From: a virus
Lineage: Duplodnaviria; Heunggongvirae; Uroviricota; Caudoviricetes
Virus record (IMG/VR): IMGVR_UViG_2690316068_000002
Reading direction: 5' to 3' (one strand)
DNA: 64,000 bases
Position 1 is the stretch's first letter. Each line of letters opens with the position of its first letter. The translations under genes were made by a program, and so were the position numbers. Of the stretch, positions 32,938 to 47,074 are shown one piece after another. Below the pieces are notes generated by a model. The model was not told where the DNA came from. It searched no databases and was given only the letters and a program-made list of their open reading frames with translations.

Positions 32938-33094
32938 AGTAGGCATTACTTCTTTGTAGTGAAAAGGGGCTTGATAGTAACAAAATGGCCTTATGTCTGC
33001 CATGTGATAACAGCATTTCTCATAAATGATTAAATGTCGTAGCTGGAGTACACTACAAGGCGACAATTGCGCAAATTAAAATAAAGGAGACGGG

Positions 33095-34195
33095 ATGAGC
33101 GAGTCCAAATCGCCGGATGCCCTGAGAGCAATGGTAGCCGGTACGCTGGCTAATTTTCAGCACCCAACCCTGAAACACAACCTGACTACGCTTAAAGCGT
33201 TACACCATGTTGCGTTGATGGATGACACACTGCATGTCGAACTAATCATGCCTTTCGTGTGGAATAAGCCTTTTGAAGACCTGAAAGAGCAATGTAATGG
33301 TGATCTGCTCCGTATCACTGGCGCAAAGGCTATTGACTGGAAGCTGTCGTACAACATTGCCACGCTTAAGCGCGTCAAAAACCAACCAGGTATTAATGGC
33401 GTTAAGAACATTATCGCCGTCAGCTCAGGCAAGGGCGGCGTGGGTAAATCCTCCACGGCGGTAAACCTGGCACTGGCGTTGGCTGCTGAAGGTGCGAAAG
33501 TTGGTATTTTGGATGCCGATATCTATGGTCCATCAATTCCAACCATGCTGGGCGCGGAAAACCAACGTCCAACCTCACCTGACGGTACTCACATGGCACC
33601 TATCATGTCTCATGGCCTGGCAACCAACTCTATTGGTTATCTGGTCACCGACGACAATGCAATGGTGTGGCGTGGACCGATGGCCAGCAAGGCGCTGATG
33701 CAGATGTTGCAGGAAACTCTATGGCCTGATCTGGACTATCTCGTTCTCGATATGCCGCCGGGCACTGGTGATATTCAGTTGACGCTGGCGCAGAACATTC
33801 CTGTAACTGGTGCGGTTGTGGTAACTACGCCGCAAGACATCGCGCTGATCGATGCGAAGAAAGGCATTGTGATGTTCGAAAAAGTCGAAGTGCCGGTACT
33901 GGGTATCGTCGAAAACATGAGTGTGCATATTTGCAGTAACTGCGGTCATCACGAGCCAATTTTTGGCACCGGTGGCGCACAGAAACTGGCCGAGAAATAC
34001 AACACGCAGTTGTTAGGCCAAATGCCACTTCATATCTCTCTTCGTGAAGATCTGGATAACGGAACACCAACCGTTATTAGTCGTCCAGATAGCGAATTTA
34101 CGGCTATTTATCGTGACCTCGCAGATCGCGTTGCTGCCCAAATGTATTGGCAAGGTGAAGTAATACCTGGCGAAATCGCATTCCGCGCAGTGTGA
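33095..34195 (+). CDS. apbC: Fe-S cluster carrier ATPase ApbC/Mrp
   Basis: 366 aa; P-loop SSGKGGVGKSS, CxxC motif (CSNCGHH), divergent from metG as in enterobacterial chromosomes. Confidence 0.9.
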   Translation: MSESKSPDALRAMVAGTLANFQHPTLKHNLTTLKALHHVALMDDTLHVELIMPFVWNKPFEDLKEQCNGDLLRITGAKAIDWKLSYNIATLKRVKNQPGINGVKNIIAVSSGKGGVGKSSTAVNLALALAAEGAKVGILDADIYGPSIPTMLGAENQRPTSPDGTHMAPIMSHGLATNSIGYLVTDDNAMVWRGPMASKALMQMLQETLWPDLDYLVLDMPPGTGDIQLTLAQNIPVTGAVVVTTPQDIALIDAKKGIVMFEKVEVPVLGIVENMSVHICSNCGHHEPIFGTGGAQKLAEKYNTQLLGQMPLHISLREDLDNGTPTVISRPDSEFTAIYRDLADRVAAQMYWQGEVIPGEIAFRAV

Positions 34196-34232
34196 TAAAA
34201 AGGCGGTGCATTGCACCGCCTAATCAGTTCTC

Positions 34233-34622
34233 CTACATCACGGGACAATCATCAAACTCGCCACTTCTTGCGTCGTTGATAATGTGAGTGATCACACCAA
34301 ACACGGCATTGCTGCCCGTGCATCCATCGTCATCCTTTGGCAATGCTTCCTTCTTACCGGTTCTTAAATCCTCCAGATGCTGACGTGGATACTTCCGGTA
34401 TCTTTTTACGCGATATTCCCCATCCAGAGCGCATACAAGCAGAGAACCATCAACCGGGGTAAGTGAGGAATCGACCACCAGCAATGCACCCTGTAATATT
34501 CCCTCACGATGATGACTATCAGCTGCCCTCATGAAGTAGGTCGCTGAAGGATGTCTAATTATCTGCTGATCAAGAGAAATACGGCTCTCAGCATAATCCG
34601 CCGCAGGAGAAGGGAAGCCCAT
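34233..34622 (-). CDS. UmuD'-like S24 peptidase-family protein (N-terminally short relative to UmuD)
   Basis: 129 aa; begins MGFPSPAADY, i.e. at the position equivalent to the RecA-facilitated Cys24-Gly25 cleavage site of UmuD; Ser (ADSH) and Lys (RVKRY) positions conserved; C-terminal insertion relative to UmuD. Confidence 0.7.
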   Translation of the reverse strand: MGFPSPAADYAESRISLDQQIIRHPSATYFMRAADSHHREGILQGALLVVDSSLTPVDGSLLVCALDGEYRVKRYRKYPRQHLEDLRTGKKEALPKDDDGCTGSNAVFGVITHIINDARSGEFDDCPVM

Positions 34623-34638
34623 AATACTCGCCTCTTAA

Positions 34639-34658
34639 TACTGTATATACATACAGTA
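34639..34658. promoter_or_regulatory. LexA (SOS) box
   Basis: taCTGTatatacatACAGta, a perfect CTGT-N8-ACAG palindrome, 17 bp upstream of the UmuD'-like start codon and its AAGAGG Shine-Dalgarno. Confidence 0.75.
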
Positions 34659-35284
34659 TATGTTGAAGCTATATATTTTTGAACTCTATCTCTTAAAAAA
34701 GATGTTAATAAGATGCTAACTATTGAAAGGCATAAATATATACAATTCCAACAAACGTTATTTTTAACAAATTTTTTCTCTCTGTTGACTTTTGCGAAAG
34801 CCTTGTCTGGCCTAAATTGCGCGGAAGCTACTTTTTCCTTCCTGAGTTATCCACAGAGTTATGCACTTGCATGCATAACCTATACACACTATCTTAATTC
34901 GCAAGACACTGATGTTGCGGTATTGAAGGTTCATTGGGTTAAAAATAGACATTAAAAAGCCCAGTTGACTAGGCTGGGCTTTTTAAAAGGAAACAGAGTT
35001 TGCGGCTCTGTTCCTGAGCCATAAGTATCTGGCGACTGAATTAAGATTAACCGAATGTACTGGATTCATCAAGAAACGTTGAGTGGTCATACCAGGTAAT
35101 AATGACCATTTACTAAACATCGTTGTTCTCAAAGAAGATTTAAGTCCAGGTTTTTGGTGACTCTAAAACCTTACCTTAACTCGAAATCGTGCCGTAAGTA
35201 TCTGGCGACTACAGATATTGCAACTGCAAAGGCAAGCCCAAAGGTATTTGCAGCTAGGCGCGATAAAACTAAGTGAGGCCTGTT

Positions 35285-35368
35285 ATGGTTAACTTACTGT
35301 TCAAAATCGTGCCGCCGATGTTCGCGATTATCAAAGCGATCATTGAGTACGTAAACCAGCGTCCATAA
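35285..35368 (+). CDS. Candidate 27-aa hydrophobic peptide (MVNLLFKIVPPMFAIIKAIIEYVNQRP)
   Basis: Short ORF followed by a hairpin (ggccccatcaagagcatggggcc); lies in an intergenic block with 16-bp perfect direct repeats (taagtatctggcgact at 35023 and 35205). Confidence 0.25.
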   Translation: MVNLLFKIVPPMFAIIKAIIEYVNQRP

Positions 35369-35423
35369 CGCTAGTTGCTACAGGCCCCATCAAGAGCATG
35401 GGGCCTCTTTATCGTACTATTGC

Positions 35424-36050
35424 TTATTTTTTACGGACTGAGTTGTTCACTGCTCTGGCAATCTTCTCCCGCAATTGCTGCGTTCCGTGGTACTGAACCG
35501 CAATATCTCTCAACTCGTTCACCAGTTCTCGAATCTGGTGATCTTTAAGCTCATTATTTGGGTGATTGGTAACAACTCTGGTTAATTCACCCTTGTCTTT
35601 TGCTCTTACGTATGCAGCTCTTGTGCATTCGACCCATGTATTACCGCCTACATTAACTTCGTAGATTAGGCTGGACTTATCTGTCAATTCGGAACAAATA
35701 CGGGCCGTGGTCTGGCAACTAGAGCATTCGCAGTTATCGCGGAAACCGTGATCTACCGGTCGAGAAAGAGGTTTAACTTTTTCATCCAACTTCATCACAG
35801 CATCGTGATAAGCGTTCCAGCCGTCATCTTTACCAAGTTGATAAATCTCTGAAGGCTCCATGTAGTCTATATCGCAACCTTCTTCATCCGATCTATCTGG
35901 TCGCTTCCCTGGTAATCGCTCATAAAAACAATTTCTGTCTCGACGTTCGGCTCTCAGTGCTAACGCAAGAAGTTGCTCAAGCGAGGTATTTGCACCAGCA
36001 ATAATTTCATTGAGAATATCTTCTGTGAGATCTTTCGCTACCGTGCTCAT
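35424..36050 (-). CDS. Hypothetical protein
   Basis: 208 aa ORF, Cys-containing, no recognisable motif. Confidence 0.5.
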   Translation of the reverse strand: MSTVAKDLTEDILNEIIAGANTSLEQLLALALRAERRDRNCFYERLPGKRPDRSDEEGCDIDYMEPSEIYQLGKDDGWNAYHDAVMKLDEKVKPLSRPVDHGFRDNCECSSCQTTARICSELTDKSSLIYEVNVGGNTWVECTRAAYVRAKDKGELTRVVTNHPNNELKDHQIRELVNELRDIAVQYHGTQQLREKIARAVNNSVRKK

Positions 36051-36430
36051 TTATCTCTCTCAGTATGTTGCGATGGCGTAAATTTGACGACATCAAATAT
36101 TTTGGATGGCATCAACTTTATCCGCGAGCTTAGTTCGGCTCTTCTCTGTAATGCGGTTAATAATGTTTTCGTTCTGACGCCTTCGTGTATCCTCATCCCT
36201 GGCACAAGAACTACATCGCAGGGGAGATGCTCAGGTGACAAATCATTTTGGGCATCGCTAATCAGTCGTGTAATCTCTCTTTCAAGCCGACCGCCTAGCT
36301 CTGTTTTAGTGCAATGTTCTGACCAATCGCCAGCCTCAAGCAGCGCGAGAATGCTTAAAATATCGTCCAATAGATCAGTGGTATTATCGACTTCCTTCTG
36401 AAACTCACCGGCTACTGATTTATGCATCAT
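36047..36430 (-). CDS. Hypothetical protein
   Basis: 127 aa ORF with overlapping start/stop with neighbours. Confidence 0.45.
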   Translation of the reverse strand: MMHKSVAGEFQKEVDNTTDLLDDILSILALLEAGDWSEHCTKTELGGRLEREITRLISDAQNDLSPEHLPCDVVLVPGMRIHEGVRTKTLLTALQRRAELSSRIKLMPSKIFDVVKFTPSQHTERDK

Positions 36431-37080
36431 TCGTCATCCTCATCCGAGTCATCCTCATCAAAGGATGAGAGTAGTGGGTTAGTCATTCGCCCTACTTGAG
36501 TGGCGTAGCCACGCCGACAGAGATTGCGCAGCACACTGTATATTTCGAACATCTCGGTTCGTTCATCGCCAACATCAAGCTCAGATGCTATAGCGTGGCA
36601 TTCAGTCGCGAGAGCCGATATTTTCTGAAATAACTCTGCATTATTCACTGTTCGACTCCTGCGGCGTTCTGGTAGTGGCATCCAGTGTGTGACATTGCTA
36701 ATCAGACCATATTCATTAGTTTGAGGATGGTTGCCGTTATCGTCTCCGTATTTAAGACTCTCCATAAAGCCATAATGCCTATCACCATTAACGCTCACAA
36801 AGCCGTAATAAGCAGGTATAACGCCGATCTCACACGTAACCAGTAAAGGAAAACTAGTTCTCCAATTTAGCTCGCCAATTACAGGCATTCGCTCACTACA
36901 GCTTATCCAACCATCCTTAGATGCGGCTGTATTGGCATAGGCCTTACGGTGCTTCTGTAGCTCTGCTGCAATCGCTCTCACGACTTCAACTGGTGCCCTT
37001 GCAGCAAACTCAATGTTGGTGATCAGCTCATTAAGATATTTCTCGCTTGGGTAGCATTTCTTATTGTTAACGGTGGTCAT
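36427..37080 (-). CDS. Hypothetical protein, DUF551-like motif
   Basis: 217 aa; W..C.ERMP / HWMPLPE pattern typical of a phage domain of unknown function; acidic C-terminus. Confidence 0.45.
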   Translation of the reverse strand: MTTVNNKKCYPSEKYLNELITNIEFAARAPVEVVRAIAAELQKHRKAYANTAASKDGWISCSERMPVIGELNWRTSFPLLVTCEIGVIPAYYGFVSVNGDRHYGFMESLKYGDDNGNHPQTNEYGLISNVTHWMPLPERRRSRTVNNAELFQKISALATECHAIASELDVGDERTEMFEIYSVLRNLCRRGYATQVGRMTNPLLSSFDEDDSDEDDE

Positions 37081-37265
37081 TAGGCAGCTCTCTCAACAAC
37101 AAGCAATTCGTCGTAGTCATAATCAGTTTCGGAACCATCCGTACCGAACAGAGTCACTTTGTCATTTTCCATCCAAAAAGATTTAACCGCACATTGTTGA
37201 CCTTTAGATGTTATGAGCACATCACCAGGGATTACGTCTTCAGCGCGAACCTCTAGTGTTCTCAT
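37080..37265 (-). CDS. Hypothetical small protein
   Basis: 61 aa ORF tightly packed between neighbours. Confidence 0.35.
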   Translation of the reverse strand: MRTLEVRAEDVIPGDVLITSKGQQCAVKSFWMENDKVTLFGTDGSETDYDYDELLVVERAA

Positions 37266-37921
37266 CGTGCTGCCCCCTCTTTGGTGAAAATGCCTGCTGC
37301 AATGCTGTTTATGATGCTGTCAGTGCATGGAGTAGAAAGCTGGGCATCTCCAGCAATTTTCATGACCTCAACATCCGCATATCGAATACCGAGGTGTATC
37401 AGACCGGCTATACCTGACTTAAGTCGAACATTTTCCATAAACAGATCTTTTTCCCGCTGTTTAGCGGCTTCCAACTCCATCGACAATTTTTCCAACTGCT
37501 CTTTATGCTTCTTGTATTCCTGATACGCGTGCCAAGACTGACCTTTGCGCACACTATCAGCGATATCAGCAACCTGCTCTGGTGTTAGCGTGGTCAGTGG
37601 CTGTGATGGAAAAATCATCACTTGCCCGGCATCCCAATCAAAACCCGCCTGAATTGACTGAACCTCAACTGATGGTGTTGAACCGATGCGACCAGGCGAA
37701 TGAACAACGATCGTTACATCCATATCGCGACGATGGCTGTGGTTGTTGGACAAAATACGATTCACCAACTCAGAAAATTTGGATAATTTCATGCTGATCT
37801 CTCTTTCTCTCCCCGGATAATTCTGTTGCACACATCCACACACTCGTCGCAGATGAAAACGGCGTCCCCAGCAATTAACTTTTTGACGGCGTACTGGGAT
37901 TTGTTGCAGAAGCTGCAACAA
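37262..37921 (-). CDS. Hypothetical protein
   Basis: 219 aa ORF; C-terminal coiled-coil-like segment. Confidence 0.45.
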
Positions 37922-38112
37922 AGTGTTCGCCTGACTGATAAGGATGGAGCGCCAGATGTCAGCCGCTCCATATCGTTCTTGCGACGCAATATCACACGGC
38001 TGAACTCAACCAGTTTCTCCGGGGATATCTCCTCCTCCGTAGCGAGCGTCTCTAGTCGTTCGAGTATGTTGAAGGCTTTTTCTTGGGTAATAGCAGAGTG
38101 CGATGTGGTCAT
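37789..38112 (-). CDS. Small protein with ClpX-type C4 zinc-binding domain
   Basis: C-terminal [38 protein letters not shown] closely parallels the ClpX N-terminal zinc-binding domain ([37 protein letters not shown]); no AAA+ module. Confidence 0.6.
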
Positions 38113-38510
38113 TTTCTTTCACCTTCAATGTTCGTGGCGCTGGCAAGATTGTCCTTGCGAAGAAGAGCGGCTATGCGCTTACTTCCATCCGAGATAACGC
38201 CCTCGTAATACTCACGCTGCTCGTTGAGTTTTGATTTTGCCAACTCCAGTTGTTTTGTTAGTTCCGCAATACGGCAAACATCGTTGATACGCGTTTCCTC
38301 TAATGCGTTGATCTCATCCAGTAGTGCCAGCACGGTTTCTGGTCCGGCCAGAAATTTGAAGGCGTTGAGGGCATCAATATCAACACCGCTATCTTTAAGT
38401 TCCTGTTCGCATATCAGATCATCATCAACTGGCAACATTAACAGGCGTTCCATTGCCGGAATTGCACGCTCTGCCGCCTCACGCAGTGCCTGATAGTCAA
38501 TCTTGCTCAC
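38109..38510 (-). CDS. Hypothetical protein
   Basis: 133 aa acidic ORF. Confidence 0.45.
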
Positions 38511-39007
38511 TGGATGACTCCTTTACGAAGCTGTTCAGCAATACTTACGCATATCTCTGCGCCTCTAATCAGCCCCGGAACGTTCTTGTTTGGCCCAACT
38601 TCACCATCAACAAAATCAATCATCGCGTTACGAGCCATATCCACGCCCTGCGCACGTACTTCAGCCAGAAAAGCATCGGTGGCTGGAGTCTCCGTTAATT
38701 CGCTAACCCAATTATCTCCGTGTTCCTCGGCACACATCGCATCGAATGCTCGCTCAGATTCTTTCAGGGCTGCATTCTCCGCCGCTAATGCGTCTCTCTG
38801 CGCTCGCAACTTCTCAATTTCGGCAGCCATGTAGTAACCAACCATAGCGAAAGTGGCGAAAGGGTAGTCAGAATCATCAGGAGATACGGAGGCCATTAGC
38901 AGACCATCGTGCATGTTCTGGCTTCCATCAGTGATGGATACCGCATAAGAATCGCTGGTTTCCCGTTTATACAATACGACGACCGGGTTCTTGATTTTCT
39001 CTCTCAT
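38507..39007 (-). CDS. Hypothetical protein
   Basis: 166 aa ORF. Confidence 0.45.
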   Translation of the reverse strand: MREKIKNPVVVLYKRETSDSYAVSITDGSQNMHDGLLMASVSPDDSDYPFATFAMVGYYMAAEIEKLRAQRDALAAENAALKESERAFDAMCAEEHGDNWVSELTETPATDAFLAEVRAQGVDMARNAMIDFVDGEVGPNKNVPGLIRGAEICVSIAEQLRKGVIQ

Positions 39008-39561
39008 TACGATGCCTCTAACTTATCTAACTCTTTCAGCCCTTCACGTACCGCGTTCACAATGCGTTCCAGATACTGGTATTTCGGGTTTGGTACCGTT
39101 GGCCAGTCGGCATACCACGGATCATCACCAAAGAGATTCAGCAGTTTGTTACCGACGCCGAAACAACAGCAGCTTTCTTTTACGTCATCGGTGTTTTCCG
39201 CCTCGTCCCACATTTCACGAGCCAGTACGGCGTCGATTTCTCTCTCTCTTCGTAACTTTATGATTTCTGACTTCACGAAAAGCAGATTTGCATCGTTGTC
39301 ATCGTCGACCGTGCTTCGCAGTTGAGAGTCGAAATAGCCGATTAGATACTCGTTGCTGACCCGCTTAATGAACGTCTGCACATCATCACCGCCCATAGCA
39401 AACCAAGCCGCAGTCCACGCTTTTCCGTAGCAGATGATGGTGATTCTTCCCTTACCAGGTTCGTAGTTTTCAATCATCACTCGAACCGGATCGAGGCGTT
39501 CCAGATCCGTCAGCACAAAGGAAAGAACATCTATTTTTTCGACCTTCATGCAGCCTCCCAC
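39007..39561 (-). CDS. Hypothetical protein
   Basis: 184 aa ORF. Confidence 0.45.
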   Translation of the reverse strand: MGGCMKVEKIDVLSFVLTDLERLDPVRVMIENYEPGKGRITIICYGKAWTAAWFAMGGDDVQTFIKRVSNEYLIGYFDSQLRSTVDDDNDANLLFVKSEIIKLRREREIDAVLAREMWDEAENTDDVKESCCCFGVGNKLLNLFGDDPWYADWPTVPNPKYQYLERIVNAVREGLKELDKLEAS

Positions 39562-40187
39562 GCGCTCCAGATCAGCGATTTGTGTTTTTCATAACGTTTG
39601 ATGTGTACCGGTTTCAGAAGCGCAATACCTTCAGTGACTTTCGCCATTGCGCTTAATAGCAACGGGTGTTCTATACCTATCCTCTCCATGTACTCGACAA
39701 CATCAGCGTTGGCACCAATCTCTTTGCCGTGAAAGAGTACGTCCAGCATCAGTTCTTTCTCTGCGAGGTAGACAGCTGAAAACTCGGGATCGCGACTCAC
39801 GATAGAAGAGGTATTGTCGAGCAGGTCAGCCAGCTTGATCATGCGCGTCTGCATGTCGAGATTTTGCTCCAGCTCCCGGACATTGATGATGAAACGCTGT
39901 ATTCGATTGCCGTCTTCTGGCCTTGCAATGTTGGTCAGAGCCTGAACCATTTCAGCTACGCGCTCACCGAAGTGATCACGAACCATCTCTATGGTTACAT
40001 GGGTGTCTTCGACCACATCATGCAGAAGCGCCGCGATTTGCATCTCCACGGTTCCGTCATGCAATGCAACAATCTCTCGGACAGCAACCGGGTGGTTGAT
40101 GTAGTCTTCGCCGGTATATTTTCTTTTCTGACCAACGCCACCATGAGCGCCAGCGGCGAACATATGAGCTTCGGAAATACTAGACAT
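39546..40187 (-). CDS. HD-domain phosphohydrolase, SpoT/Mesh1-type small alarmone hydrolase-like
   Basis: 213 aa; INHPVAVREIV...AALLHDVVEDT matches the (p)ppGpp-hydrolase HD motif of SpoT/RelA; no synthetase domain. Confidence 0.7.
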   Translation of the reverse strand: MSSISEAHMFAAGAHGGVGQKRKYTGEDYINHPVAVREIVALHDGTVEMQIAALLHDVVEDTHVTIEMVRDHFGERVAEMVQALTNIARPEDGNRIQRFIINVRELEQNLDMQTRMIKLADLLDNTSSIVSRDPEFSAVYLAEKELMLDVLFHGKEIGANADVVEYMERIGIEHPLLLSAMAKVTEGIALLKPVHIKRYEKHKSLIWSAWEAA

Positions 40188-40306
40188 TCTTAACTCCGTT
40201 GTTTTCTAGTTGTGGTTATTTTCACAAATAAGAAAAGGTAGAAAACAATTTATTTAAGGCCACAACTTATGGCCTTTATTTATTCATGCCGAAGGATTTG
40301 TAGCGT

Positions 40307-40687
40307 CTAATTGCCGGATAAAATGGGGTGAGGTGCTTGCCAGTAGGCTCCACCGGTCCATGTGAACCCCATGCGAATAAGAGTGTTTATTGCGGCTTTG
40401 GTAGACTCCGATTCGACACTGGCTTTTCGAAACTCTTGAACCTCTTTCGCCAACTTGTATGTAATTGTGCAGGGGACGATTGCAGCCCAGCCTTTCTCAT
40501 GACTGTTAATGACCATCTGGATGTGACCATCCAGAATAGGTTGATTAGGCATGTTATTGAAAATGTCTGCCTGTTTTTGAATGTGAAGAAAAAGCCTTGC
40601 CAGCTCCATTTGCTCACTACGAGACAAGGGATTATCAAGAGGGCTTTTTGCAAAAGCGGCTATACGCTGTGCGTCAATGCCAAACAT
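40307..40687 (-). CDS. Hypothetical protein
   Basis: 126 aa ORF. Confidence 0.4.
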   Translation of the reverse strand: MFGIDAQRIAAFAKSPLDNPLSRSEQMELARLFLHIQKQADIFNNMPNQPILDGHIQMVINSHEKGWAAIVPCTITYKLAKEVQEFRKASVESESTKAAINTLIRMGFTWTGGAYWQAPHPILSGN

Positions 40688-41391
40688 CAGCGCACCTCAC
40701 CATCTTTATGGCTGGAGTTAACTTCCGCCATTAAATGTCTGACGTAATCGACAAGAGAGCCACCTGGTGGAATCTGGCATTCCTCAACTAACTGGAAGTA
40801 GATATCCGCTGCATTACGTGTATTGCTACCCGCACATATTCTTTCTTCCCGAAGTGCATGAAGCTCGTTGATCAAACGGTCACACTCTCCGTTACGCTGA
40901 TCCACAACGGCCTCAAGCTCTGCGACGCGTTCACCTGGCGTCTTACCTTCTTTGCGTTGGATGGTAACGACGAAATCGCCAATTGCAGGGACGTTGTAAT
41001 CCAGCTCAAGGTAGTTTTTGGCACCGCTGCGGACGAACTCACCCGCGAACATGGTGGCGAACATCGCAGAGGCCACTTCGCCGTTGAAAAGTGACTCCAG
41101 ATCTAACGGAGTCCCGGCATCAAGAGCCTCTTTTGCTGTATCCATTGCATCCATGAACCGATCAAACTCATTGGCGCGCTTTTCCAGGTTTTTCCATTGC
41201 TCGCTCCAACGTTTGGCAACGAAGTCTATGAATGTTTTCGCGGATTCATCAAAATCCCCCTCAAACTTAACGATGCCTTTATCAATAATGATCTGGCCTA
41301 CCGCATCCTCTGCATAACCTTTCAATGTAAACTTGAAAGGAAAATCAGAATGGCCTGTGACGTTAAAATGCTCTAACTGGAGGTTGTTCAT
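40687..41391 (-). CDS. Hypothetical protein
   Basis: 234 aa ORF. Confidence 0.45.
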   Translation of the reverse strand: MNNLQLEHFNVTGHSDFPFKFTLKGYAEDAVGQIIIDKGIVKFEGDFDESAKTFIDFVAKRWSEQWKNLEKRANEFDRFMDAMDTAKEALDAGTPLDLESLFNGEVASAMFATMFAGEFVRSGAKNYLELDYNVPAIGDFVVTIQRKEGKTPGERVAELEAVVDQRNGECDRLINELHALREERICAGSNTRNAADIYFQLVEECQIPPGGSLVDYVRHLMAEVNSSHKDGEVR

Positions 41392-41452
41392 GTGTTTTTC
41401 TCTTATCGTTTAGTAACTACATTCTTACACAAATTAGGTAAGTATTTACCTA

Positions 41453-43138
41453 TCATTTAACGCGTTTGAAAACGTATACGCTGACTGTGATCCCTGTGTC
41501 TTCAAACTCGTTGGTAAACGACTTCCCTCTGGCATAAACGTAATTATCCATCGTCATCCAGTCCAGTATTGGCGCAGTGCCCGGCAATACTGCTACAAGA
41601 CGCCCGCCGACTTTCAGATGCCCCAGCGCAGCCAGCGTGTGCTCTCTATGACGACCAAGCGAGTACGGCGGGTTCATAACGATTTTGTCGAACTGATAAC
41701 CTACGTTGTCCTCAGACCACTTTATGAAGTCGCAGCAAATCGTGTTCGTATACCCTTTTCCGCGCAGGATATCAGCGAAGAGAGGTGCGATTTCTATGCA
41801 GGTAACATCTTCCAGATCGGCGTTGATATAGGCCAGAAGATCCCCACGTCCGGCTTGAGGCTCCAGCAGCTTCTCACCAGACTTCAATTCAGTGGCTCTG
41901 GCAACGTACTCAGCAATCAAGCGTGGGGTAGGGTAGAACTGGTGTGATTTTGTATCCGGTATTAATCCGGTAGCCACAATCGTATTTAGCGTATGGCCGA
42001 TCTCATACGGGAACTGCCAGTGCTTTTTCTCCTGCACGCCGCCAATGAAGCTCAGTGTGCGCTCAAGCTCTTCCACCTGCGACTTCTGGAGAGCTGAATC
42101 AGAGAAGTACCATACGCCTTTGTCTTTGCTTAATCGCCCGTCACGAAGCGCAGTGCGAACCGGCACGGAGATCGTCTTCTGGATTAACCCGAACTGCTTT
42201 GGTGCCCGTGTTTTTGGCGCGGTGCGACATGGCGCGGGGATTGCAGCAGGCATACTGTAAGCCAGCACCTCATTCAACTTCCAGGCCACGTCAGGATGTA
42301 TTTCAAAGTGAACGTTGCCGTTCTTGAACATCTTCACGCGCATTAGATTTCCATCGACGTTCATCCAGTCACCGGTCTGGCAGTCGTTTGCCCGATACGC
42401 AGCTGATAGCACCTCAGCAGTGCGGTTGATGGTAATAAATTCTTTGTGCGCGAAGAAATGAAGCAAGACACGCAGATCGTCGATATAGTCCTCTTTGCGA
42501 TAGTTCACACTAACGCTGTCCCGCCAGAAATCAGAAATGCAGTCAGCGATTATCAGACGTTCGCTGAAACCGTTTGTCTTATTTGTCTTGTGCGCAGGAC
42601 TCAGCGCCTTAAACAAGCCATACACGCGCTCAGAGAGATATTTGTGCCTGTCATTCAGCAAATTAAGCATCGTGGGTATGACCGTTTCTGCTTTGAACTC
42701 CGGTACACCAACGAACTCTTTAACCTTCATCTGGTAGCCGGTTCTGTCAGTTTTGATGACTTCCTGTTTGCCCTCTATAAACTGCTCGCGCCACTCATCT
42801 CGACGGGAAGCTGGCATGATCAGCAAAACGTTAGTCATGTCCGTGACCTTCCTCCAGTACTCGGCCCAAATATTCTGTTTCACCCATTCCAGATCGACTT
42901 TATCCAACCAACCTCGATTTAAACGCGAGCGATCTTCATCTGGTCGATGGTTTAGTCTCAGCAGGCGATTAATCATGTTGTGGCGTTCGTCGCCATAAAC
43001 GAAGTCGTGTACCTGATACATGAAGGCGATCTCTTTCTCGCACTCGGCCACAATTTCGTGGATGACGTTCATTTCCTGCCGATAGTCGATAGCAGTGTTT
43101 GAGTTGGCATCGTCGATGATGGAAAGGGCTGTATTCAT
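41453..43138 (-). CDS. DNA methyltransferase (amino-MTase, NPPY motif) with large N-terminal domain
   Basis: 561 aa; C-terminal AdoMet-binding-like EPQAGRGDL followed by catalytic NPPY. Confidence 0.65.
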   Translation of the reverse strand: MNTALSIIDDANSNTAIDYRQEMNVIHEIVAECEKEIAFMYQVHDFVYGDERHNMINRLLRLNHRPDEDRSRLNRGWLDKVDLEWVKQNIWAEYWRKVTDMTNVLLIMPASRRDEWREQFIEGKQEVIKTDRTGYQMKVKEFVGVPEFKAETVIPTMLNLLNDRHKYLSERVYGLFKALSPAHKTNKTNGFSERLIIADCISDFWRDSVSVNYRKEDYIDDLRVLLHFFAHKEFITINRTAEVLSAAYRANDCQTGDWMNVDGNLMRVKMFKNGNVHFEIHPDVAWKLNEVLAYSMPAAIPAPCRTAPKTRAPKQFGLIQKTISVPVRTALRDGRLSKDKGVWYFSDSALQKSQVEELERTLSFIGGVQEKKHWQFPYEIGHTLNTIVATGLIPDTKSHQFYPTPRLIAEYVARATELKSGEKLLEPQAGRGDLLAYINADLEDVTCIEIAPLFADILRGKGYTNTICCDFIKWSEDNVGYQFDKIVMNPPYSLGRHREHTLAALGHLKVGGRLVAVLPGTAPILDWMTMDNYVYARGKSFTNEFEDTGITVSVYVFKRVK

Positions 43139-43241: not shown

Positions 43242-43913
43242 CTAATCATACTTGGAGGTATTTATCACCAGAATTTTGTTTGTATAAATCTTCTTAATAT
43301 CCCATGTGACATTACCGGAATACCATTGACCGTTATATACTTGGTTTCCAGTTGCACCTGTCATTGTTACATAGACAGGTCTGTCGTAATCGGTTCGTCT
43401 ATAGTTATATACCCCAACCATAGCAGGCATTACCGCACATGGATACCCCATATCTATTGTAAATTGAGGGTCAGAAATAGTGATAAGTTTCGCATCAAGG
43501 GGCATCATCTCACCGTGATACACCATTGCGCCTGCGCTGTTATACATGGCAATGCCATAGCCAGAATGTGGTAACACCATATCAGAAAAAGCATAAACTG
43601 TTATTGTTCCGGGGCTACCATTTACCTGATGCAATCTGAGAGCATTGTATCCGTTACTATGCTCATGAATAAACATCATGTTCGCCTTATTACTGCTTTT
43701 TATGAAGAAAAAGCATGATTTGTTTGATGGGATTGATGTTTGAAAAACAGAACCTTTAGATGTAGACATTGTCCCTTTATTAATCAGATTTTGCGGAGTA
43801 AATTCTGGACTCATCCACAAACTTCCATCTGATTGAGTAATTGACATCCCGAACATAATTATCCCCAGTATGTGTATATGTAAGAACCAAGCCCCGTATA
43901 TAAATTTGACCAA
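43242..43913 (-). CDS. Hypothetical protein (AT-rich island)
   Basis: 223 aa ORF in low-GC DNA; overlaps the next ORF in another frame. Confidence 0.4.
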   Translation of the reverse strand: MVKFIYGAWFLHIHILGIIMFGMSITQSDGSLWMSPEFTPQNLINKGTMSTSKGSVFQTSIPSNKSCFFFIKSSNKANMMFIHEHSNGYNALRLHQVNGSPGTITVYAFSDMVLPHSGYGIAMYNSAGAMVYHGEMMPLDAKLITISDPQFTIDMGYPCAVMPAMVGVYNYRRTDYDRPVYVTMTGATGNQVYNGQWYSGNVTWDIKKIYTNKILVINTSKYD

Positions 43914-44140
43914 CTAACCGTATTTCCATTAATAGTAACTGTTGGAACAGGTAAATTAATGTAGTTGTCGTTGTTAAGAGGCATCAATGACCACACGGCA
44001 TGTAGCGATTTACCCGGTGGCGGATTGGAGTACGTCTTAGAGCCTGATGACGCAGTAAATCGATCAAGAAAAAAAATAGGAGTAAGGAAGCCAGTAACGT
44101 TAATTCCTTTATTGTTGTAAATCCCTGTACCGTATGCCAT
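43859..44140 (-). CDS. Hypothetical protein (AT-rich island)
   Basis: 93 aa ORF; 55-nt out-of-frame overlap with 43242-43913. Confidence 0.35.
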   Translation of the reverse strand: MAYGTGIYNNKGINVTGFLTPIFFLDRFTASSGSKTYSNPPPGKSLHAVWSLMPLNNDNYINLPVPTVTINGNTVSWSNLYTGLGSYIYTYWG

Positions 44141-44780: not shown

Positions 44781-44820
44781 CTTAAACAAGTTGTTTTCTT
44801 ATTGGCTTTATTGTGATGTG
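44781..44820. promoter_or_regulatory. Palindromic upstream motif family 1, representative copy
   Basis: cttAAACAAgTTGTTTtcttattggctttattgtgatg; AAACAA-N-TTGTTT inverted repeat about 20-45 bp upstream of the start codon. Confidence 0.5.
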
Positions 44821-45062
44821 GCATAAAAGGGGAGCAAGCTAAACGTAAAGGTGCAAACTCTCTATTTCGGTCAACGAAACACAAGGGCCATTTGGCCCTT
44901 GTCATTAACACGTTGCTTTACGGACTAGCGGATAAGCGAAGTAGATCGCCAGACCAATGAGGACGCCATCAGAAATGACAGACATCATCTTTCCCGTAAA
45001 ATCCACCAACACCGCCATCACCAGAAGAGCAATGACGGTCACAAGCCGGAATCTCTCAAGCA

Positions 45063-45488
45063 TTAGAGATAAGCATCCAGTGACAACTGAAGCGCCTGTG
45101 CGATCTTTTTCAGGGCCAGCTCTTCTTGTTCGCCAATACCGTCTTGGTCGGCAATATCAAGGCACAGACACAGTACATCTACTGCATCATTAGTCCCGGC
45201 CACATCAGCCAGCTCACGTAAAGCCTGGGCATTAGCGCGGCGCGGTGAGGCTTCGTATTGAGCACGGATATTGGCGCTCATTTGGGCAATCTCACCAGCA
45301 AACGGAGAAAACGCAGGCAGAGCTGCAATTGTTTTCTCAAGAATGGAAATTTCCTTTGCGTCGCATGTGCCATCGGCATAGGAGATCATGTACGCGCCCC
45401 ACACGGTGGCTTCAACCGCATCTCGGTTCTCCATTTTTTTGACCTCGATAACAGCTTTACGAGTTTTCTTTTTGAATAAACCTAACAT
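45063..45488 (-). CDS. TerB-like domain protein
   Basis: 141 aa; helical pattern and acidic motifs resembling tellurite-resistance TerB-family proteins; motif-1 upstream (45511-45535). Confidence 0.55.
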   Translation of the reverse strand: MLGLFKKKTRKAVIEVKKMENRDAVEATVWGAYMISYADGTCDAKEISILEKTIAALPAFSPFAGEIAQMSANIRAQYEASPRRANAQALRELADVAGTNDAVDVLCLCLDIADQDGIGEQEELALKKIAQALQLSLDAYL

Positions 45489-45581
45489 GTGCTTTCCTTT
45501 TGTTATTTGTTAAAACAAGTTGTTTTCTAGTTACATGAATTGCTTACGAAAAGACGGTCAATGCATATGCACTAACAACCG

Positions 45582-45779
45582 TCAGAAATAACCAAGTACC
45601 GAACCGACTGGAAAAACAAAAATCCCAACAACACGAGCCAAGGTCATACCAGCCTGAAACTGGAGATCACCAGAGCAAACGAGTTTTACAATGTTCGATA
45701 CCCAACCGGCGGCCATGAGAGCTATGAAAGCCAGAATCGCCAGCCAAGTTTTTCCAAAGTGATTTGAAAACCAGTTCAT
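45582..45779 (-). CDS. Small membrane protein (two predicted TM helices)
   Basis: 65 aa with two hydrophobic stretches. Confidence 0.5.
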   Translation of the reverse strand: MNWFSNHFGKTWLAILAFIALMAAGWVSNIVKLVCSGDLQFQAGMTLARVVGIFVFPVGSVLGYF

Positions 45780-46027
45780 ACAACCGCCTTAGTCACAGCA
45801 TGATCCTGAGTAACTGGATGAACTTGAGGTATCGCATCCACCGTCATCCCATCCAGAGTGACAGGACGCTCTACTGGAGTGGTGGTAATTGTCGTCGACG
45901 GAGGTGTGGTGATGGATGAACCCGGCATCAAAAGGCTCTGGCCGGCTGGAACGGCTACCGTCGCCAGTGAAACTATAATGAGAACGTAGGCCATTGGTTT
46001 CAGCCTCTTTCTTTGAAAATTTTCCAT
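45776..46027 (-). CDS. Membrane-anchored Pro/Thr-rich protein
   Basis: 83 aa; N-terminal TM segment then PPSTTITTTP linker. Confidence 0.4.
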   Translation of the reverse strand: MENFQRKRLKPMAYVLIIVSLATVAVPAGQSLLMPGSSITTPPSTTITTTPVERPVTLDGMTVDAIPQVHPVTQDHAVTKAVV

Positions 46028-46283
46028 TCGAACTGTCCTTGTTGTTTTTCTCCTTCACTAAAGGCCGTGTACTTTTCGCTTCGCGTGAAGAACCAGAGGT
46101 AACAATCGCCCCCACGTTCGCAACAACTGACGCTTGCTTATCTAAACGTTCATTCAGCAACCGAACGGCAGTCTCTAGTTCATCAAGACGTGACAGAACA
46201 CGACCGCTAAATAATTCGGCCAAAATTTGACGTAGTGAACGAGGACGTTTAGTTGCAGAAGTGAAATAGGTTTGACGTGCCAT
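45789..46283 (-). CDS. Hypothetical protein (boundaries uncertain)
   Basis: 164 aa ORF whose N-terminal ~85 aa look protein-like; C-terminal part is low-complexity and overlaps 45776-46027 out of frame. Confidence 0.3.
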   Translation of the reverse strand: MARQTYFTSATKRPRSLRQILAELFSGRVLSRLDELETAVRLLNERLDKQASVVANVGAIVTSGSSREAKSTRPLVKEKNNKDSSNGKFSKKEAETNGLRSHYSFTGDGSRSSRPEPFDAGFIHHHTSVDDNYHHSSRASCHSGWDDGGCDTSSSSSYSGSCCD

Positions 46284-46428
46284 GTGGACTCCATCCAGTG
46301 TCAGAAAGAGTTGCGGCTGGCGATTGCCAGCCGCCTTTCTCGTTCCATCCTGGAACTGTGTCTTACCGACACATTGTCATCCTGACGCCGATAAGATACA
46401 TGATTTAAAATGATAGGTAAACACTTAC

Positions 46429-47022
46429 TTACTGCTTGTTGTAAACAAAACCAATATCTTTCTTGTGAGGCATATCTGCTGCGGAAAAAGCTGCGATCTT
46501 CGCGAGTCGATCACATATTTCATTTTCACGATGCCCGGCGTGACCTTTAACCCACTTCCAGCGAACATTATGTCGACTTGCAGCCTCATCCAGACGCTTC
46601 CACAGATCAACATTCTTTACCGGTTTTTTATCAGAAGTCATCCATCCATTACGTTTCCACCATTTCATCCACTGTGTCATGCCGTTTTTCAGATACTGGC
46701 TATCAGAGTACAAAATAACGTTGCATGGATATTTCAAACGCTCCAGCCCGATAAGTGCGCCCATCATCTCCATGCGGTTATTGGTGGTGCTATGAAAACC
46801 ATCTGAGAACTCGCGTTCCTCACCACGATACTGGAGAACGATACCGTAACCGCCCGGGCCACCCGGATTTTTAAGGCAAGAGCCATCACTAAAGATTTTC
46901 ACGGTTTTGAGCTGGGGATTGAACTCTACGACAGGCGTTGTGGGATTGGTGCGGGGAGATTTTTTGTTTTTGGCTTTTTTGCGAGTTTTTGCTTGCGATC
47001 GGGCTGGTGTCTTCGTCGTCAT
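46429..47022 (-). CDS. Ribonuclease H (RNase HI-like) with basic N-terminal extension
   Basis: Core IFSDGSC...GYG..L..R....S.TTNNRMEM...Y.DS.Y matches RNase HI active-site architecture; start placed at the Met preceded by GGAG. Confidence 0.75.
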
Positions 47023-47074
47023 ATAAACTCCTGAATCAAGCGCCGCGCCGATTTTTTCCTCGCGCGTGCGCACA

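What the first reader, a model, noticed from the sequence alone, without database searches (positions are those of the whole stretch)
45063..46283. TerB-like protein followed by small membrane proteins with overlapping, ambiguous reading frames
A TerB-family domain protein sits upstream of a two-TM 65-aa protein and a Pro/Thr-rich membrane-anchored protein. The 164-aa and 83-aa ORFs overlap out of frame, suggesting a frameshift or sequencing error, or an embedded gene. Small membrane proteins next to a stress-domain protein could be a lysis-timing, exclusion or membrane-stress module.
Basis: inference. Interest (0 to 1): 0.4.

Follow-up and report, generated by a model that had tools for sequence, protein, structure and literature searches.

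The report
Overlapping phage genes beside TerB cassette
In this SSU5-like phage-plasmid of E. coli the two out-of-frame ORFs are a real, conserved gene-within-a-gene pair (not a sequencing error) that sits in one small accessory operon with a tiny membrane-protein gene and the already known P1-type tciA/tciB (TerB) cassette; what the overlapping pair does is still unknown.

Summary
The ORFs exist as described, but all lie on the minus strand, so the TerB gene is downstream of the small genes, not upstream. A and B are both intact in 79 of 81 related loci across about ten lineages. B always keeps its own Shine-Dalgarno and start codon, a basic N-terminus, a hydrophobic helix and a Pro/Thr-rich tail. 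In B's first 34 codons the B frame, not the A frame, is under purifying selection. A's frame staying open is itself improbable by chance (0.03-0.09 per lineage). So this is a true overlapping gene pair; frameshift or sequencing error is rejected. Genes C and tciAB are facultative neighbours, and tciAB occurs alone in P1 and lambdoid phages, so there is no obligate three-gene module. The canonical lysis cassette lies elsewhere. The function of A/B/C is unknown; I favour an envelope-directed accessory role such as exclusion, at low confidence.

The parts
46393..46421 (-). Candidate sigma-70 promoter for the operon: TTTACC (46421..46416), 17 nt spacer, TATCTT (46398..46393). It lies just downstream of the rnhA stop codon.
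   Evidence: Read from the sequence. It matches only 8 of 12 consensus positions, so the scan did not list it. Both hexamers are conserved in the lineages aligned; the -10 element is also seen in nearly all of the 35 upstream sequences (two variants carry TATTCT). Promoter activity is inferred, not shown.
46313..46386 (-). Structured 5' leader. It has a mini-hairpin GTCA-GGA-TGAC (46386..46376), hairpin GTGTC-GGTAA-GACAC (46372..46358), hairpin GTTCCA-GGA-TGGAAC (46356..46342) and a GC-rich terminator-like hairpin GCGGCTGGC-AATC-GCCAGCCGC (46334..46313). An invariant AACTCTTTCTGACA and the SD of gene A follow.
   Evidence: The leader is more conserved than the coding DNA in all lineages. 97.4% of cells are paired; 9 pairs change on both sides against 2.6 +/- 1.2 in shuffles (0/500), and slid controls give 0-2. 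The GC-rich hairpin is flagged as terminator-like. A weak CsrB-like Rfam hit (E 0.08) reflects the GGA loops. The element is single-copy in the window.
45789..46283 (-). Gene A, 164 aa. It has a basic N-terminus, a long helix (residues 17-65) and a disordered Ser/Gly/Asp/His/Cys-rich tail that ends in Cys-Asp. It has no TM segment. It belongs to phrog_10411 (function unknown).
   Evidence: SD GGAG lies 5 nt before the ATG. AlphaFold2 gives helices 17-25 and 28-65 with pLDDT up to 91, and pLDDT below 50 for residues 67-164. The best 17-residue hydropathy window scores only 0.9. Purifying selection acts on frame 0 in the N-terminal half (dNN/dSN 0.26). The ORF is open to the same stop position in 79/81 loci. 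The family has only 22 members among 1.84 billion representative proteins.
45776..46027 (-). Gene B, 83 aa, in the +1 frame inside gene A's 3' half and running 13 nt beyond A's stop. It has a basic N-terminus, a hydrophobic helix (residues about 12-28) and then a Pro/Thr-rich tail with a conserved LDGMxxDxIP motif. It is probably a Sec signal peptide or signal anchor. It matches phrog_15659.
   Evidence: Its own SD (AAGGA/GGAG, 8-10 nt upstream) and ATG are conserved in all lineages, with GTG in one. In the first 38 codons of the overlap the frame-specific substitution classes give dN/dS 0.32 for B against 1.67 for A. Over the first 34 codons, identity is 0.55 in B against 0.37 in A, in 21/21 pairs. 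Hydropathy is 1.6-2.8 in every lineage. AlphaFold2 gives helix 3-23 and then disorder. The PHROG hit has E 1e-48.
45582..45779 (-). Gene C, 65 aa (62 aa in most relatives), a two-TM inner-membrane protein. Its ATG overlaps B's TGA (ATGA), which implies translational coupling to B. It matches phrog_6006 (function unknown).
   Evidence: Searches give the two hydrophobic segments (residues 8-35 and 43-65). The ATGA or GTGA overlap is conserved wherever C is present. The family is restricted to SSU5-like elements. The holin Pfam hit is below threshold (14.6 against 22.2 bits).
45063..45488 (-). tciA: a 141-aa TerB-domain protein, orthologue of phage P1 TciA.
   Evidence: Pfam TerB E 1.2e-6, above the gathering score. 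phrog_632 'tellurite resistance' E 3e-62. It is 83% identical to P1 TciA over 141 aa, and the DNA is 77% identical to P1. It is annotated 'P1 TciA-like' in phage Cyrano.
44905..45063 (-). tciB: a 52-aa DUF3927 two-TM protein. Its start overlaps the tciA stop by 1 nt.
   Evidence: Pfam DUF3927 E 1.9e-12. phrog_1470 'TciB-like'. It is 39% identical to P1 TciB. Hydrophobic segments are shown.
44881..44902 (-). Intrinsic-terminator-like hairpin directly after tciB (ACAAGGGCC-AAAT-GGCCCTTGT followed by GTTTCGTT). It is the likely 3' end of the operon.
   Evidence: 9-bp stem, 6 G-C pairs. Termination itself was not tested.

Best explanation
The region is one minus-strand accessory operon of an SSU5-like phage-plasmid. 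It is built from two separable parts.

Part 1 is constant in the whole SSU5 supergroup and always follows rnhA. It is a bona fide same-strand overlapping gene pair.
- Gene A makes a cytoplasmic protein with a long helix (a possible coiled coil; oligomerisation was not tested) and a disordered Ser/Gly/Asp/His/Cys-rich tail.
- Gene B is translated independently from its own SD and ATG in the +1 frame of the DNA that encodes A's disordered tail. It makes an 83-aa exported or membrane-anchored Pro/Thr-rich protein.
- B's stop overlaps the start of gene C, a 2-TM protein. This implies that C is made by translational coupling to B.

Part 2 is the mobile tciA-tciB cassette, also found in P1: a TerB-domain protein plus a DUF3927 2-TM protein.

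The operon starts behind a conserved, covarying hairpin leader that ends in a terminator-like stem. It ends at a terminator after tciB.

Shown: the gene structure, its conservation, the selection on both frames, the lack of membership in the spanin or holin families, and the identity of tciAB.

Inferred, at low confidence (about 0.3): B and C act at the inner membrane or periplasm, with A as a cytoplasmic partner. Together they would form a non-essential envelope-directed accessory function, such as superinfection exclusion or resistance to incoming phage or colicin. This is analogous to T4 Sp+Imm. It is not a lysis function.
For: Gene structure:
- The same A/B arrangement is seen in E. coli, Salmonella SSU5, Klebsiella, Citrobacter, Enterobacter, Cronobacter, Kluyvera, Buttiauxella and metagenomic lineages.
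- It is intact in 79/81 loci, which carry 59 distinct allele sets.

Selection on B:
- In A's N-terminal half, substitutions peak at frame-0 codon position 3. In the overlap, position 3 is the least variable and position 1 (which is B's position 3) the most.
- In the first 38 overlap codons dNS is 0.48, against dNN 0.21 and dSN 0.13. This gives B a dN/dS of 0.32 (CI 0.22-0.48) and A 1.67.
- Identity over the first 34 overlap codons is 0.55 in B against 0.37 in A, in 21/21 pairs.
- SD and start codon are conserved in all lineages, whereas the internal Met12 is not.

Selection on A's tail:
- Given B's protein, frame 0 stays open in only 0.03-0.09 of synonymous recodings per lineage. The product over 7 lineages is 10^-8.7.
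- The stop position and the terminal Cys-Asp are conserved in the eight lineages, including the distant homologues P0050 and P0058. One further lineage (L084/85/87) ends in Ser-Asp.

The overlap is less diverged than A's N-terminal half (33% against 42% nucleotide differences between window and SSU5; amino-acid table).

Protein features come from AlphaFold2 and hydropathy, charge and composition.

Modularity: SSU5 and L021 have A/B/C without tciAB. L016 and L019 have A/B and tciA without C. P1 and about 40-kb temperate phages have tciAB alone.

Not lysis: the relative Cyrano has holin, endolysin, Rz and Rz1 elsewhere.

Operon limits: a covarying leader and a terminator after tciB.
Against: - There are no expression, ribosome-profiling or proteomic data for either frame.
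- Given A's Ser/His/Asp-rich sequence, the +1 frame would stay open by chance fairly often (0.015-0.72 per lineage). B therefore rests on the substitution pattern and conserved features, not on openness alone.
- In the second half of the overlap neither frame shows clear purifying selection (0.86 and 1.02).
- The alternative-frame dN/dS estimator is biased: it gives 0.56 for a fake +1 frame in the control region.
- A circulating allele that destroys both A's tail and B (T4 to T3) shows the pair is dispensable at least in that clone.
- The functional proposal has no homology support. Pfam, NCBIfam, PADLOC and PDB gave nothing for A, B or C. The PHROG families are of unknown function.
- The cleavable signal peptide in B is judged by eye only (small residue at -1 in all lineages); no predictor was run.
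Confidence: 0.75

Rival explanations
1. Only one of the two frames encodes a functional protein in the overlap. One possibility is that B is real and A's tail is a translated but functionless extension. It would be kept open only so that ribosomes reach the A/B/C junction. The other possibility is that A is real and B is a chance ORF allowed by A's Ser/Asp/His-rich composition.
For: - The +1 frame stays open by chance with probability up to 0.72, given A's sequence.
- A's tail is predicted to be disordered.
- Frame 0 shows dN/dS of about 1.7 in the first part of the overlap.
- Neither frame shows clear constraint in the second part.
Against: Against 'B is spurious':
- B's frame is the conserved one in 21/21 pairs.
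- Its SD, start codon, basic N-terminus, TM-grade hydrophobicity and ATGA coupling to C are kept in about ten lineages.

Against 'A's tail is junk':
- Frame 0 is open in every lineage, although the chance of this is 0.03-0.09 per lineage.
- The stop position and the SGW(D/N)...CD end are conserved even in homologues that match the family profile only at E 7e-5.
Confidence: 0.15
2. The overlap reflects a frameshift. It could be a sequencing or assembly error or a pseudogene in this window. Alternatively it could be a programmed ribosomal frameshift that makes an A-B fusion protein.
For: - Protein databases contain A(N-terminus)-B(C-terminus) fusion proteins (P0012, P0013, P0015, P0022, P0049, P0052).
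- One of them (P0015) is caused by loss of one T in a T4 run. It recurs in at least 4 independent samples.
Against: - The window is identical to an independent complete plasmid and to the dominant protein cluster (787 members).
- Fusion junctions differ between entries, and most are singletons.
- The T4 run is not conserved in other lineages, and no conserved slippery site exists in the 7-24 codons upstream of B's ATG where the +1 frame is open.
- B has its own conserved SD and start codon.
- The recurrent T3 allele is near-clonal (0-2 differences over 507 nt). It is therefore one mutation, not recoding.
Confidence: 0.04
3. A/B is a spanin-like (Rz/Rz1-type) embedded pair and C is a holin-like protein, so the module is an auxiliary lysis or lysis-timing cassette.
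For: - The architecture matches lambda Rz/Rz1: a small Pro-rich protein with an N-terminal export signal, embedded in the +1 frame of a larger helical (possibly coiled-coil) protein.
- C has two TM segments and a weak Phage_holin_4_1 hit (E 0.036).
Against: - A has no TM segment (maximum hydropathy 0.9).
- B has no lipobox, and no Cys at all in 5 of 8 lineages.
- C's holin hit is below the Pfam cut-off, and C lacks a charged C-terminal tail.
- No endolysin is adjacent. The relative Cyrano has holin, endolysin, Rz and Rz1 next to the tail-fibre gene, and SSU5's spanins are catalogued in the spanin survey (PMC6139136).
- The module sits among early DNA-metabolism genes.
Confidence: 0.03
4. A/B/C and TciA/TciB form one functional membrane or metal-stress system. 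A's His/Cys/Asp-rich tail and TerB would both bind metal, and the four small membrane or exported proteins would form the membrane part.
For: - tciA directly follows A/B(/C) in 5 of the lineages examined, including the two most divergent (L016, L019).
- All the genes lie between one leader and one terminator in this window.
- A's tail is rich in His, Cys and Asp.
Against: - SSU5-type, L021 and L084-type elements keep A/B without tciAB.
- tciAB is a self-contained cassette in P1 and lambdoid phages.
- tciAB is a variable, often-lost region in P1-like elements (PMC9603915).
- A conserved palindrome lies upstream of tciA; by inference it may give tciA its own control.
- No other ter genes (terC, terD, terZ and so on) are nearby.
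Confidence: 0.15

Closest known systems
[quoted passage not shown]
   Same: Window tciA is 83% identical to P1 TciA and tciB is 39% identical to P1 TciB. Gene order and the stop/start overlap are the same. In both elements the cassette is an accessory region of a phage-plasmid.
   Different: There is no tciC; a terminator follows tciB directly. In P1 the cassette lies in the ban operon, next to tRNA genes. Here it lies behind the A/B/C genes downstream of rnhA. The function is untested in both.
Lambda Rz/Rz1 (two-component spanin, embedded architecture)
   Same: In both, a small exported Pro-rich protein is encoded in the +1 frame within the 3' part of a larger gene for a helical (possibly coiled-coil) protein. 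Both frames are conserved.
   Different: A lacks the N-terminal TM domain of an i-spanin. B lacks the lipoprotein box and Cys of an o-spanin. B runs 13 nt past A's stop. The pair is not in the lysis cassette, and true Rz/Rz1 genes exist elsewhere in a close relative.
T4 Sp (spackle) plus Imm superinfection-exclusion proteins
   Same: This is a functional analogy only. Both sets combine a small periplasm-exposed protein with an N-terminal export signal and a small two-TM inner-membrane protein, encoded by a phage outside its lysis genes.
   Different: No sequence similarity was found in Pfam, PHROGs or NCBIfam. There is no overlapping-gene arrangement in T4 (my own knowledge). Exclusion activity was not tested here.
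TerB of the terZABCDEF tellurite-resistance operon (IncHI2 plasmids, O157 islands)
   Same: TciA carries the TerB domain (PF05099) above the Pfam threshold.
   Different: It is a stand-alone single-domain protein with a DUF3927 partner. No terC, terD, terE or terZ lies in the neighbourhood. No solved structure matches by sequence at E below 0.3.
Overprinted genes in viruses (a new frame arising inside a region that encodes a disordered segment)
   Same: The overlapped part of A is predicted to be disordered and of low complexity, the typical setting for overprinting (general reviews listed; only their titles and abstracts were seen). The overlap is the slowest-evolving part of the locus.
   Different: Which frame is ancestral was not determined. 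Both frames are already present in the most divergent lineages found.

Membership tests
TerB family (Pfam PF05099) / P1 TciA orthologue group | Significant match to the TerB domain profile over most of its length | tested here: met
   29.3 bits against a gathering cut-off of 24.4; residues 33-136 match profile positions 9-109 of 118. phrog_632 E 3e-62.
TerB family (Pfam PF05099) / P1 TciA orthologue group | Orthology to P1 TciA, with a DUF3927/TciB gene immediately downstream | tested here: met
   83% identity over 141 aa. TciB is 39% identical. DUF3927 E 1.9e-12. The two genes overlap by 1 nt.
ter (terZABCDEF) tellurite-resistance operon | Presence of the other ter genes (terC, terD/E/Z) next to terB | tested here: not met
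   None is annotated within the 50 kb around the locus in the identical plasmid.
ter (terZABCDEF) tellurite-resistance operon | Confers tellurite, colicin or phage resistance | not testable with these tools
   The literature describes tciABC function only by homology.
Two-component spanin (Rz/Rz1 type) | Small gene embedded in or overlapping the +1 frame of the larger gene | tested here: met
   B is in the +1 frame of A, with a 239-nt overlap, conserved in 79/81 loci.
Two-component spanin (Rz/Rz1 type) | i-spanin has an N-terminal transmembrane domain | tested here: not met
   The best 17-residue hydropathy window in A scores 0.35-1.25 in the 8 lineages. AlphaFold2 shows only a soluble-type long helix.
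Two-component spanin (Rz/Rz1 type) | o-spanin is a lipoprotein (lipobox with an invariant Cys) | tested here: not met
   B has no Cys in 5 of 8 lineages, and no conserved lipobox.
Two-component spanin (Rz/Rz1 type) | Located in the lysis cassette with holin and endolysin | tested here: not met
   The neighbours are rnhA, dam and exonuclease genes. Holin, endolysin, Rz and Rz1 are at CYRAN_22-25 in the relative Cyrano.
Holin (gene C) | Match to a holin family above threshold, a charged C-terminal tail, and adjacency to an endolysin | tested here: not met
   Phage_holin_4_1 scores 14.6 bits against a cut-off of 22.2. C ends in ...GSVLGYF, with no charged tail. No endolysin is nearby.
Programmed ribosomal frameshift gene | Conserved slippery site, with the alternative frame open from that site and no independent start | tested here: not met
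   B has a conserved SD and ATG. The T4 run used by the natural fusion allele is not conserved in other lineages.
Known anti-phage defence systems (PADLOC) | Match of any of the five proteins to a defence-system model | tested here: not met
   No hits for A, B, C, TciA or TciB at E up to 0.1.
Same-strand overlapping (overprinted) gene pair | Both frames are maintained and at least the alternative frame is under purifying selection across diverged relatives | tested here: met
   Translation of both products is not testable with these tools.

The most novel reading that the evidence does not exclude
A/B/C is a previously unrecognised core system of the SSU5 supergroup of phage-plasmids, which includes pHCM2-type plasmids of Salmonella and common Klebsiella and E. 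coli plasmids. About 240 nt are truly dual-coding, for the disordered Cys-rich tail of a cytoplasmic helical (possibly coiled-coil) protein and for a secreted Pro/Thr-rich peptide. The three products act together at the envelope, for example in superinfection exclusion or host-envelope remodelling. The operon is switched by the conserved hairpin leader, either by terminator read-through or by host CsrA binding to the GGA loops and the SD.
Probability: 0.2. Interest if true: 0.6.

Novelty: new variant of a known kind. Interest (0 to 1): 0.4.

Why it matters
SSU5-like phage-plasmids are very common in clinical Enterobacteriaceae: 910 PLSDB plasmids matched this 1.7-kb stretch at least in part. 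Standard annotation (PGAP and most phage records) omits gene B.

The result adds a well-supported same-strand overlapping gene pair to the short list known in tailed phages. It corrects the annotation. It shows that the TerB cassette is a separable neighbour, identical in kind to P1 tciAB. It also defines a compact, testable operon (leader, A/B, C, tciAB) whose products are directed to the cell envelope.

If the operon proves to be an exclusion or host-modulation system, it would bear on how these plasmid-prophages compete and persist. If not, it remains a clean natural case for studying how a disordered tail and a secreted peptide share one DNA sequence.

Tried and rejected
- **Sequencing error or frameshift.** Rejected by identity to an independent plasmid and by conservation across lineages.
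- **ORF openness as proof of B.** Rejected as insufficient: randomisation shows the +1 frame is often open, given A's composition. I relied instead on substitution classes and conserved features.
- **Whole-overlap dN/dS for the alternative frame.** Not used as evidence, because the control region gives a similar biased value of 0.56. Only the first 38 codons, where the contrast is large, are used.
- **Spanin and holin membership.** Tested and not met.
- **Homology searches for function.** All of these gave nothing for A, B or C:
  - Pfam, PHROGs, NCBIfam and PADLOC;
  - PDB by sequence;
  - a 5.8-billion-protein word search for A, B and C;
  - a full HMM search of 1.84 billion representatives with the A profile, which found only 22 members, all in the same context.
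- **AlphaFold2 models of A and B.** They show only a helix plus disorder, so no fold search was run; it would be meaningless.
- **Apparent truncated or odd homologues.** They proved to be contig ends or error-ridden assemblies (P0017, P0043).
- **Rfam.** No family reached threshold in the region.
- **Literature.** Nothing on these genes in SSU5-type elements. The P1 genome paper could not be retrieved under the PMC id I tried from memory.
Full report
**What is there**

The window is part of an SSU5-like phage-plasmid of E. coli. Region 44800-46500 is 100% identical to plasmid pYLMB30c (NZ_CP073971.1). It is 95-96% identical to phages PhiR41_1, Cyrano and CMS-2020a. Window coordinates equal pYLMB30c coordinates minus 47708.

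All genes of the finding lie on the minus strand. In the direction of transcription the order is:
- rnhA, 47073..46429;
- a 145-nt intergenic leader;
- gene A, 46283..45789 (164 aa);
- gene B, 46027..45776 (83 aa, +1 frame relative to A);
- gene C, 45779..45582 (65 aa);
- tciA, 45488..45063 (141 aa, TerB domain);
- tciB, 45063..44905 (52 aa, DUF3927);
- a terminator-like hairpin, 44902..44881.

Two points need correcting. The TerB gene is the downstream partner, not the upstream one. The small membrane protein that truly follows TerB (TciB) was missed.

**The TerB part is known**

- TciA passes the Pfam TerB threshold.
- TciA is 83% identical to P1 TciA, and TciB is 39% identical to P1 TciB.
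- Cyrano's annotators already call the two genes 'P1 TciA-like' and 'P1 TciB-like'.
- The same pair occurs in P1, SJ46, JL22 and many temperate phages of about 40 kb without genes A, B or C.
- The literature treats tciABC as a variable accessory operon of P1-like phage-plasmids, with a function inferred only from TerB homology (PMC11652158 and PMC9603915).
- No other ter genes are nearby.

**The overlap is a real, conserved gene pair**

I collected related loci from annotated phages and plasmids, from contigs that encode distant homologues, and from genome and viral contig scans.

In 79 of 81 loci, with 59 distinct allele combinations, both frames are intact. These loci come from E. coli, Salmonella, Klebsiella, Citrobacter, Enterobacter, Cronobacter, Kluyvera, Buttiauxella and metagenomes. 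The two exceptions are frameshift fusions.

B has the following features in every lineage:
- It is 81-92 aa long.
- It starts at a conserved ATG (GTG once), preceded by AAGGA or GGAG at 8-10 nt.
- It has a net positive N-terminus.
- It has a hydrophobic 17-mer with Kyte-Doolittle score 1.6-2.8.
- It has a Pro/Thr/Ser-rich tail with an L(D/E)GMxxDxIP motif.
- It stops 13 nt after A's stop, or 10 nt in one lineage.

The internal Met12, used as the start in phrog_15659, is not conserved. The 83-aa start is therefore the likely one.

**Tests against chance**

*Codon positions.* In A's N-terminal half, differences peak at codon position 3. In the overlap, frame-0 position 3 is the least variable, and position 1 (B's third position) is the most.

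*Substitution classes.* I counted frame-specific classes over four lineages. For the first 38 overlap codons:

| Class | Rate |
|---|---|
| Changes that alter A but not B (dNS) | 0.48 |
| Changes that alter both (dNN) | 0.21 |
| Changes that alter B but not A (dSN) | 0.13 |

This gives B a dN/dS of 0.32 (bootstrap 0.22-0.48) and A a value of 1.67. In the remaining overlap all classes are about equal (0.32-0.37). That is lower than the rate of A-synonymous changes in A's N-terminal half (0.58), as expected if most changes hurt one frame or the other. Neither frame dominates there. The estimator is biased: a fake +1 frame in the control region gives 0.56. I therefore rely only on the first segment.

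*Ungapped identity.* Over the first 34 overlap codons, identity is 0.55 for B and 0.37 for A, with B higher in 21/21 lineage pairs.

*Randomisation.* Given A's protein, the +1 frame stays open by chance rather often (0.015-0.72 per lineage). Openness alone therefore does not prove B. Given B's protein, frame 0 stays open in only 0.03-0.09 of synonymous recodings per lineage. The product over 7 lineages is 10^-8.7 if they are treated as independent, which overstates the significance.

*A's end.* A's stop position and terminal Cys-Asp, and an SG(W/G)(D/N)..G.D motif, persist even in homologues that match the family profile only weakly (P0050, P0058).

*Divergence.* The overlap is less diverged than A's unique half. 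In distant pairs it is far better conserved: for window against L016, identity is 0.15 in the N-terminal half, 0.41 in A's overlap and 0.42 in B.

Together these results support two functional frames. The evidence is firmer for B's N-terminal part and for maintenance of A's ORF. It is softer for the amino-acid sequence of A's tail.

**Frameshift and error explanations**

Databases hold several fusion proteins made of A's N-terminus and B's C-terminus, with different junctions. Most are singletons.

One fusion (P0015) comes from loss of one T in a T4 run (window 45931..45934). It recurs in at least four independent samples, but with 0-2 differences over 507 nt, so it is one circulating mutant clone. 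The mutation truncates B after 32 residues and replaces A's last 47 residues. The pair is therefore dispensable for that clone. The T-run is not conserved in other lineages, which argues against programmed recoding.

**What the proteins look like**

- **A:** AlphaFold2 gives helices at residues 17-25 and 28-65 (pLDDT up to 91). Everything from residue 67 is disordered. There is no hydrophobic segment.
- **B:** a helix at residues 3-23 and then disorder. By inspection, every lineage has a helix-breaking Pro after the hydrophobic core and a small residue (S, A or G) at the position before a conserved Leu (…P-x-x-Q-S/A/G | L…). This is compatible with a cleavable Sec signal peptide. This is inference; no predictor was available.
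- **C:** two hydrophobic segments and no charged tail.

Pfam, NCBIfam, PADLOC and PDB give nothing significant for A, B or C. Their PHROGs are of unknown function. The A family has only 22 members among 1.84 billion representative proteins, all downstream of rnhA. B and C are equally restricted.

**Modularity**

A/B always follows rnhA and the leader. C is coupled to B by an ATGA or GTGA overlap when present. The neighbours vary:

| Feature | Lineages |
|---|---|
| C absent | L016, L019, L084/85/87 |
| C truncated | L007, L064, L065, L076 |
| tciAB present | E. coli, Klebsiella and Cronobacter types, L016, L019 |
| tciAB absent | SSU5 type, L010, L021, L084 type |

A/B is an invariant unit, while C and tciAB are facultative additions.

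**Not the lysis cassette**

Cyrano carries holin, endolysin, Rz and Rz1 next to its tail-fibre gene. SSU5's spanins are catalogued in the spanin survey (PMC6139136). A lacks an i-spanin TM domain, and B lacks a lipobox. The resemblance to Rz/Rz1 is architectural only.

The rnhA-A spacer is more conserved than the coding DNA in all lineages. Its elements are:
- a candidate promoter, TTTACC-17-TATCTT;
- four hairpins, three of which covary: 9 pairs change on both sides against 2.6 +/- 1.2 in shuffles (0/500), and slid controls give 0-2;
- GGA triplets in two hairpin loops, and a third GGA in the SD region. These resemble CsrA sites, and Rfam gives only a weak CsrB-like hit;
- a last hairpin that is GC-rich and terminator-like.

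This suggests control by attenuation or read-through, or by CsrA. This is a hypothesis only.

**Most likely function**

Shown: an exported or anchored small protein (B), a coupled two-TM protein (C) and a cytoplasmic helical protein (A, possibly a coiled coil). They sit in a non-essential operon among early and DNA-metabolism genes of a temperate element. In half of the lineages the tciAB cassette is attached.

Inferred: an envelope-directed accessory role, such as superinfection exclusion or resistance to incoming phage or colicin. In kind this is comparable to T4 Sp plus Imm. I give the functional guess about 0.3. I give the gene-structure conclusion about 0.85. The overall statement gets 0.75.

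**Novelty and score**

The tciAB part is already known. The overlapping A/B pair and the leader are, as far as the searchable literature shows, undescribed and mostly unannotated. They are a new variant of a known kind of arrangement, namely embedded +1-frame genes in phages. Interest is moderate (0.4): a solid, widespread overlapping gene pair with unknown function.

Noticed in passing
window 46313-46421 (minus strand), between rnhA and gene A: A highly conserved leader. It has a candidate promoter (TTTACC-17-TATCTT) and four hairpins, three of which covary. GGA triplets sit in two loops and at the SD, which resembles CsrA sites. The last hairpin is GC-rich and terminator-like. The leader is more conserved than the flanking genes in all lineages and is single-copy in the window.
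   Followed up: partly
window 45931-45934 (T4 run on the coding strand); loci L027-L030: A natural allele with T4 reduced to T3 truncates B after 32 aa and fuses A(1-117) to B(34-83), giving a 168-aa protein (P0015). It is found in at least 4 independent samples with 0-2 differences over 507 nt, so it is one circulating mutant clone rather than random error.
   Followed up: yes
window 45512-45526 (about 30 nt upstream of the tciA start): The palindrome AAAACAA-N-TTGTTTT is conserved upstream of tciA in the E. coli, Klebsiella, Cronobacter and L019 lineages. It is degenerate in L016 and absent upstream of P1 tciA. It may be an operator or a separate control site for tciA.
   Followed up: partly
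window 43242-44140 (minus strand): Two further small accessory genes lie downstream. One is a 93-aa 'outer membrane protein' (phrog_557, 43859..44140), which PGAP does not annotate in the identical plasmid. The other is a protein of about 204-223 aa described as 'membrane associated' (phrog_425, 43242..43913). Their longest ORFs overlap by about 55 nt. They are annotated as adjacent genes in Cyrano.
   Followed up: no
window 32126-42590: The phage-plasmid carries host-like genes metG (methionine-tRNA ligase) and apbC, an S24 peptidase gene and a complete type I restriction-modification system (hsdM, hsdS, hsdR) just upstream of this region. This cargo is absent at that position in Cyrano, PhiR41_1 and SSU5.
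   Followed up: no
window 45582-45779 (gene C): This window's C protein has a 3-residue insertion in TM1 (65 aa, against 62 aa in most relatives). Both length variants circulate in the E. coli clade.
   Followed up: partly
L012/L013 (Cronobacter) 4001-4490: In two NCBI Cronobacter assemblies the called gene range for the A homologue is 490 nt, which is not a multiple of 3. It ends at B's stop, although the DNA over the gene region (locus positions 3961-4700) in L012 is identical to L014, where A is called normally. This appears to be an annotation inconsistency caused by the two frames.
   Followed up: partly
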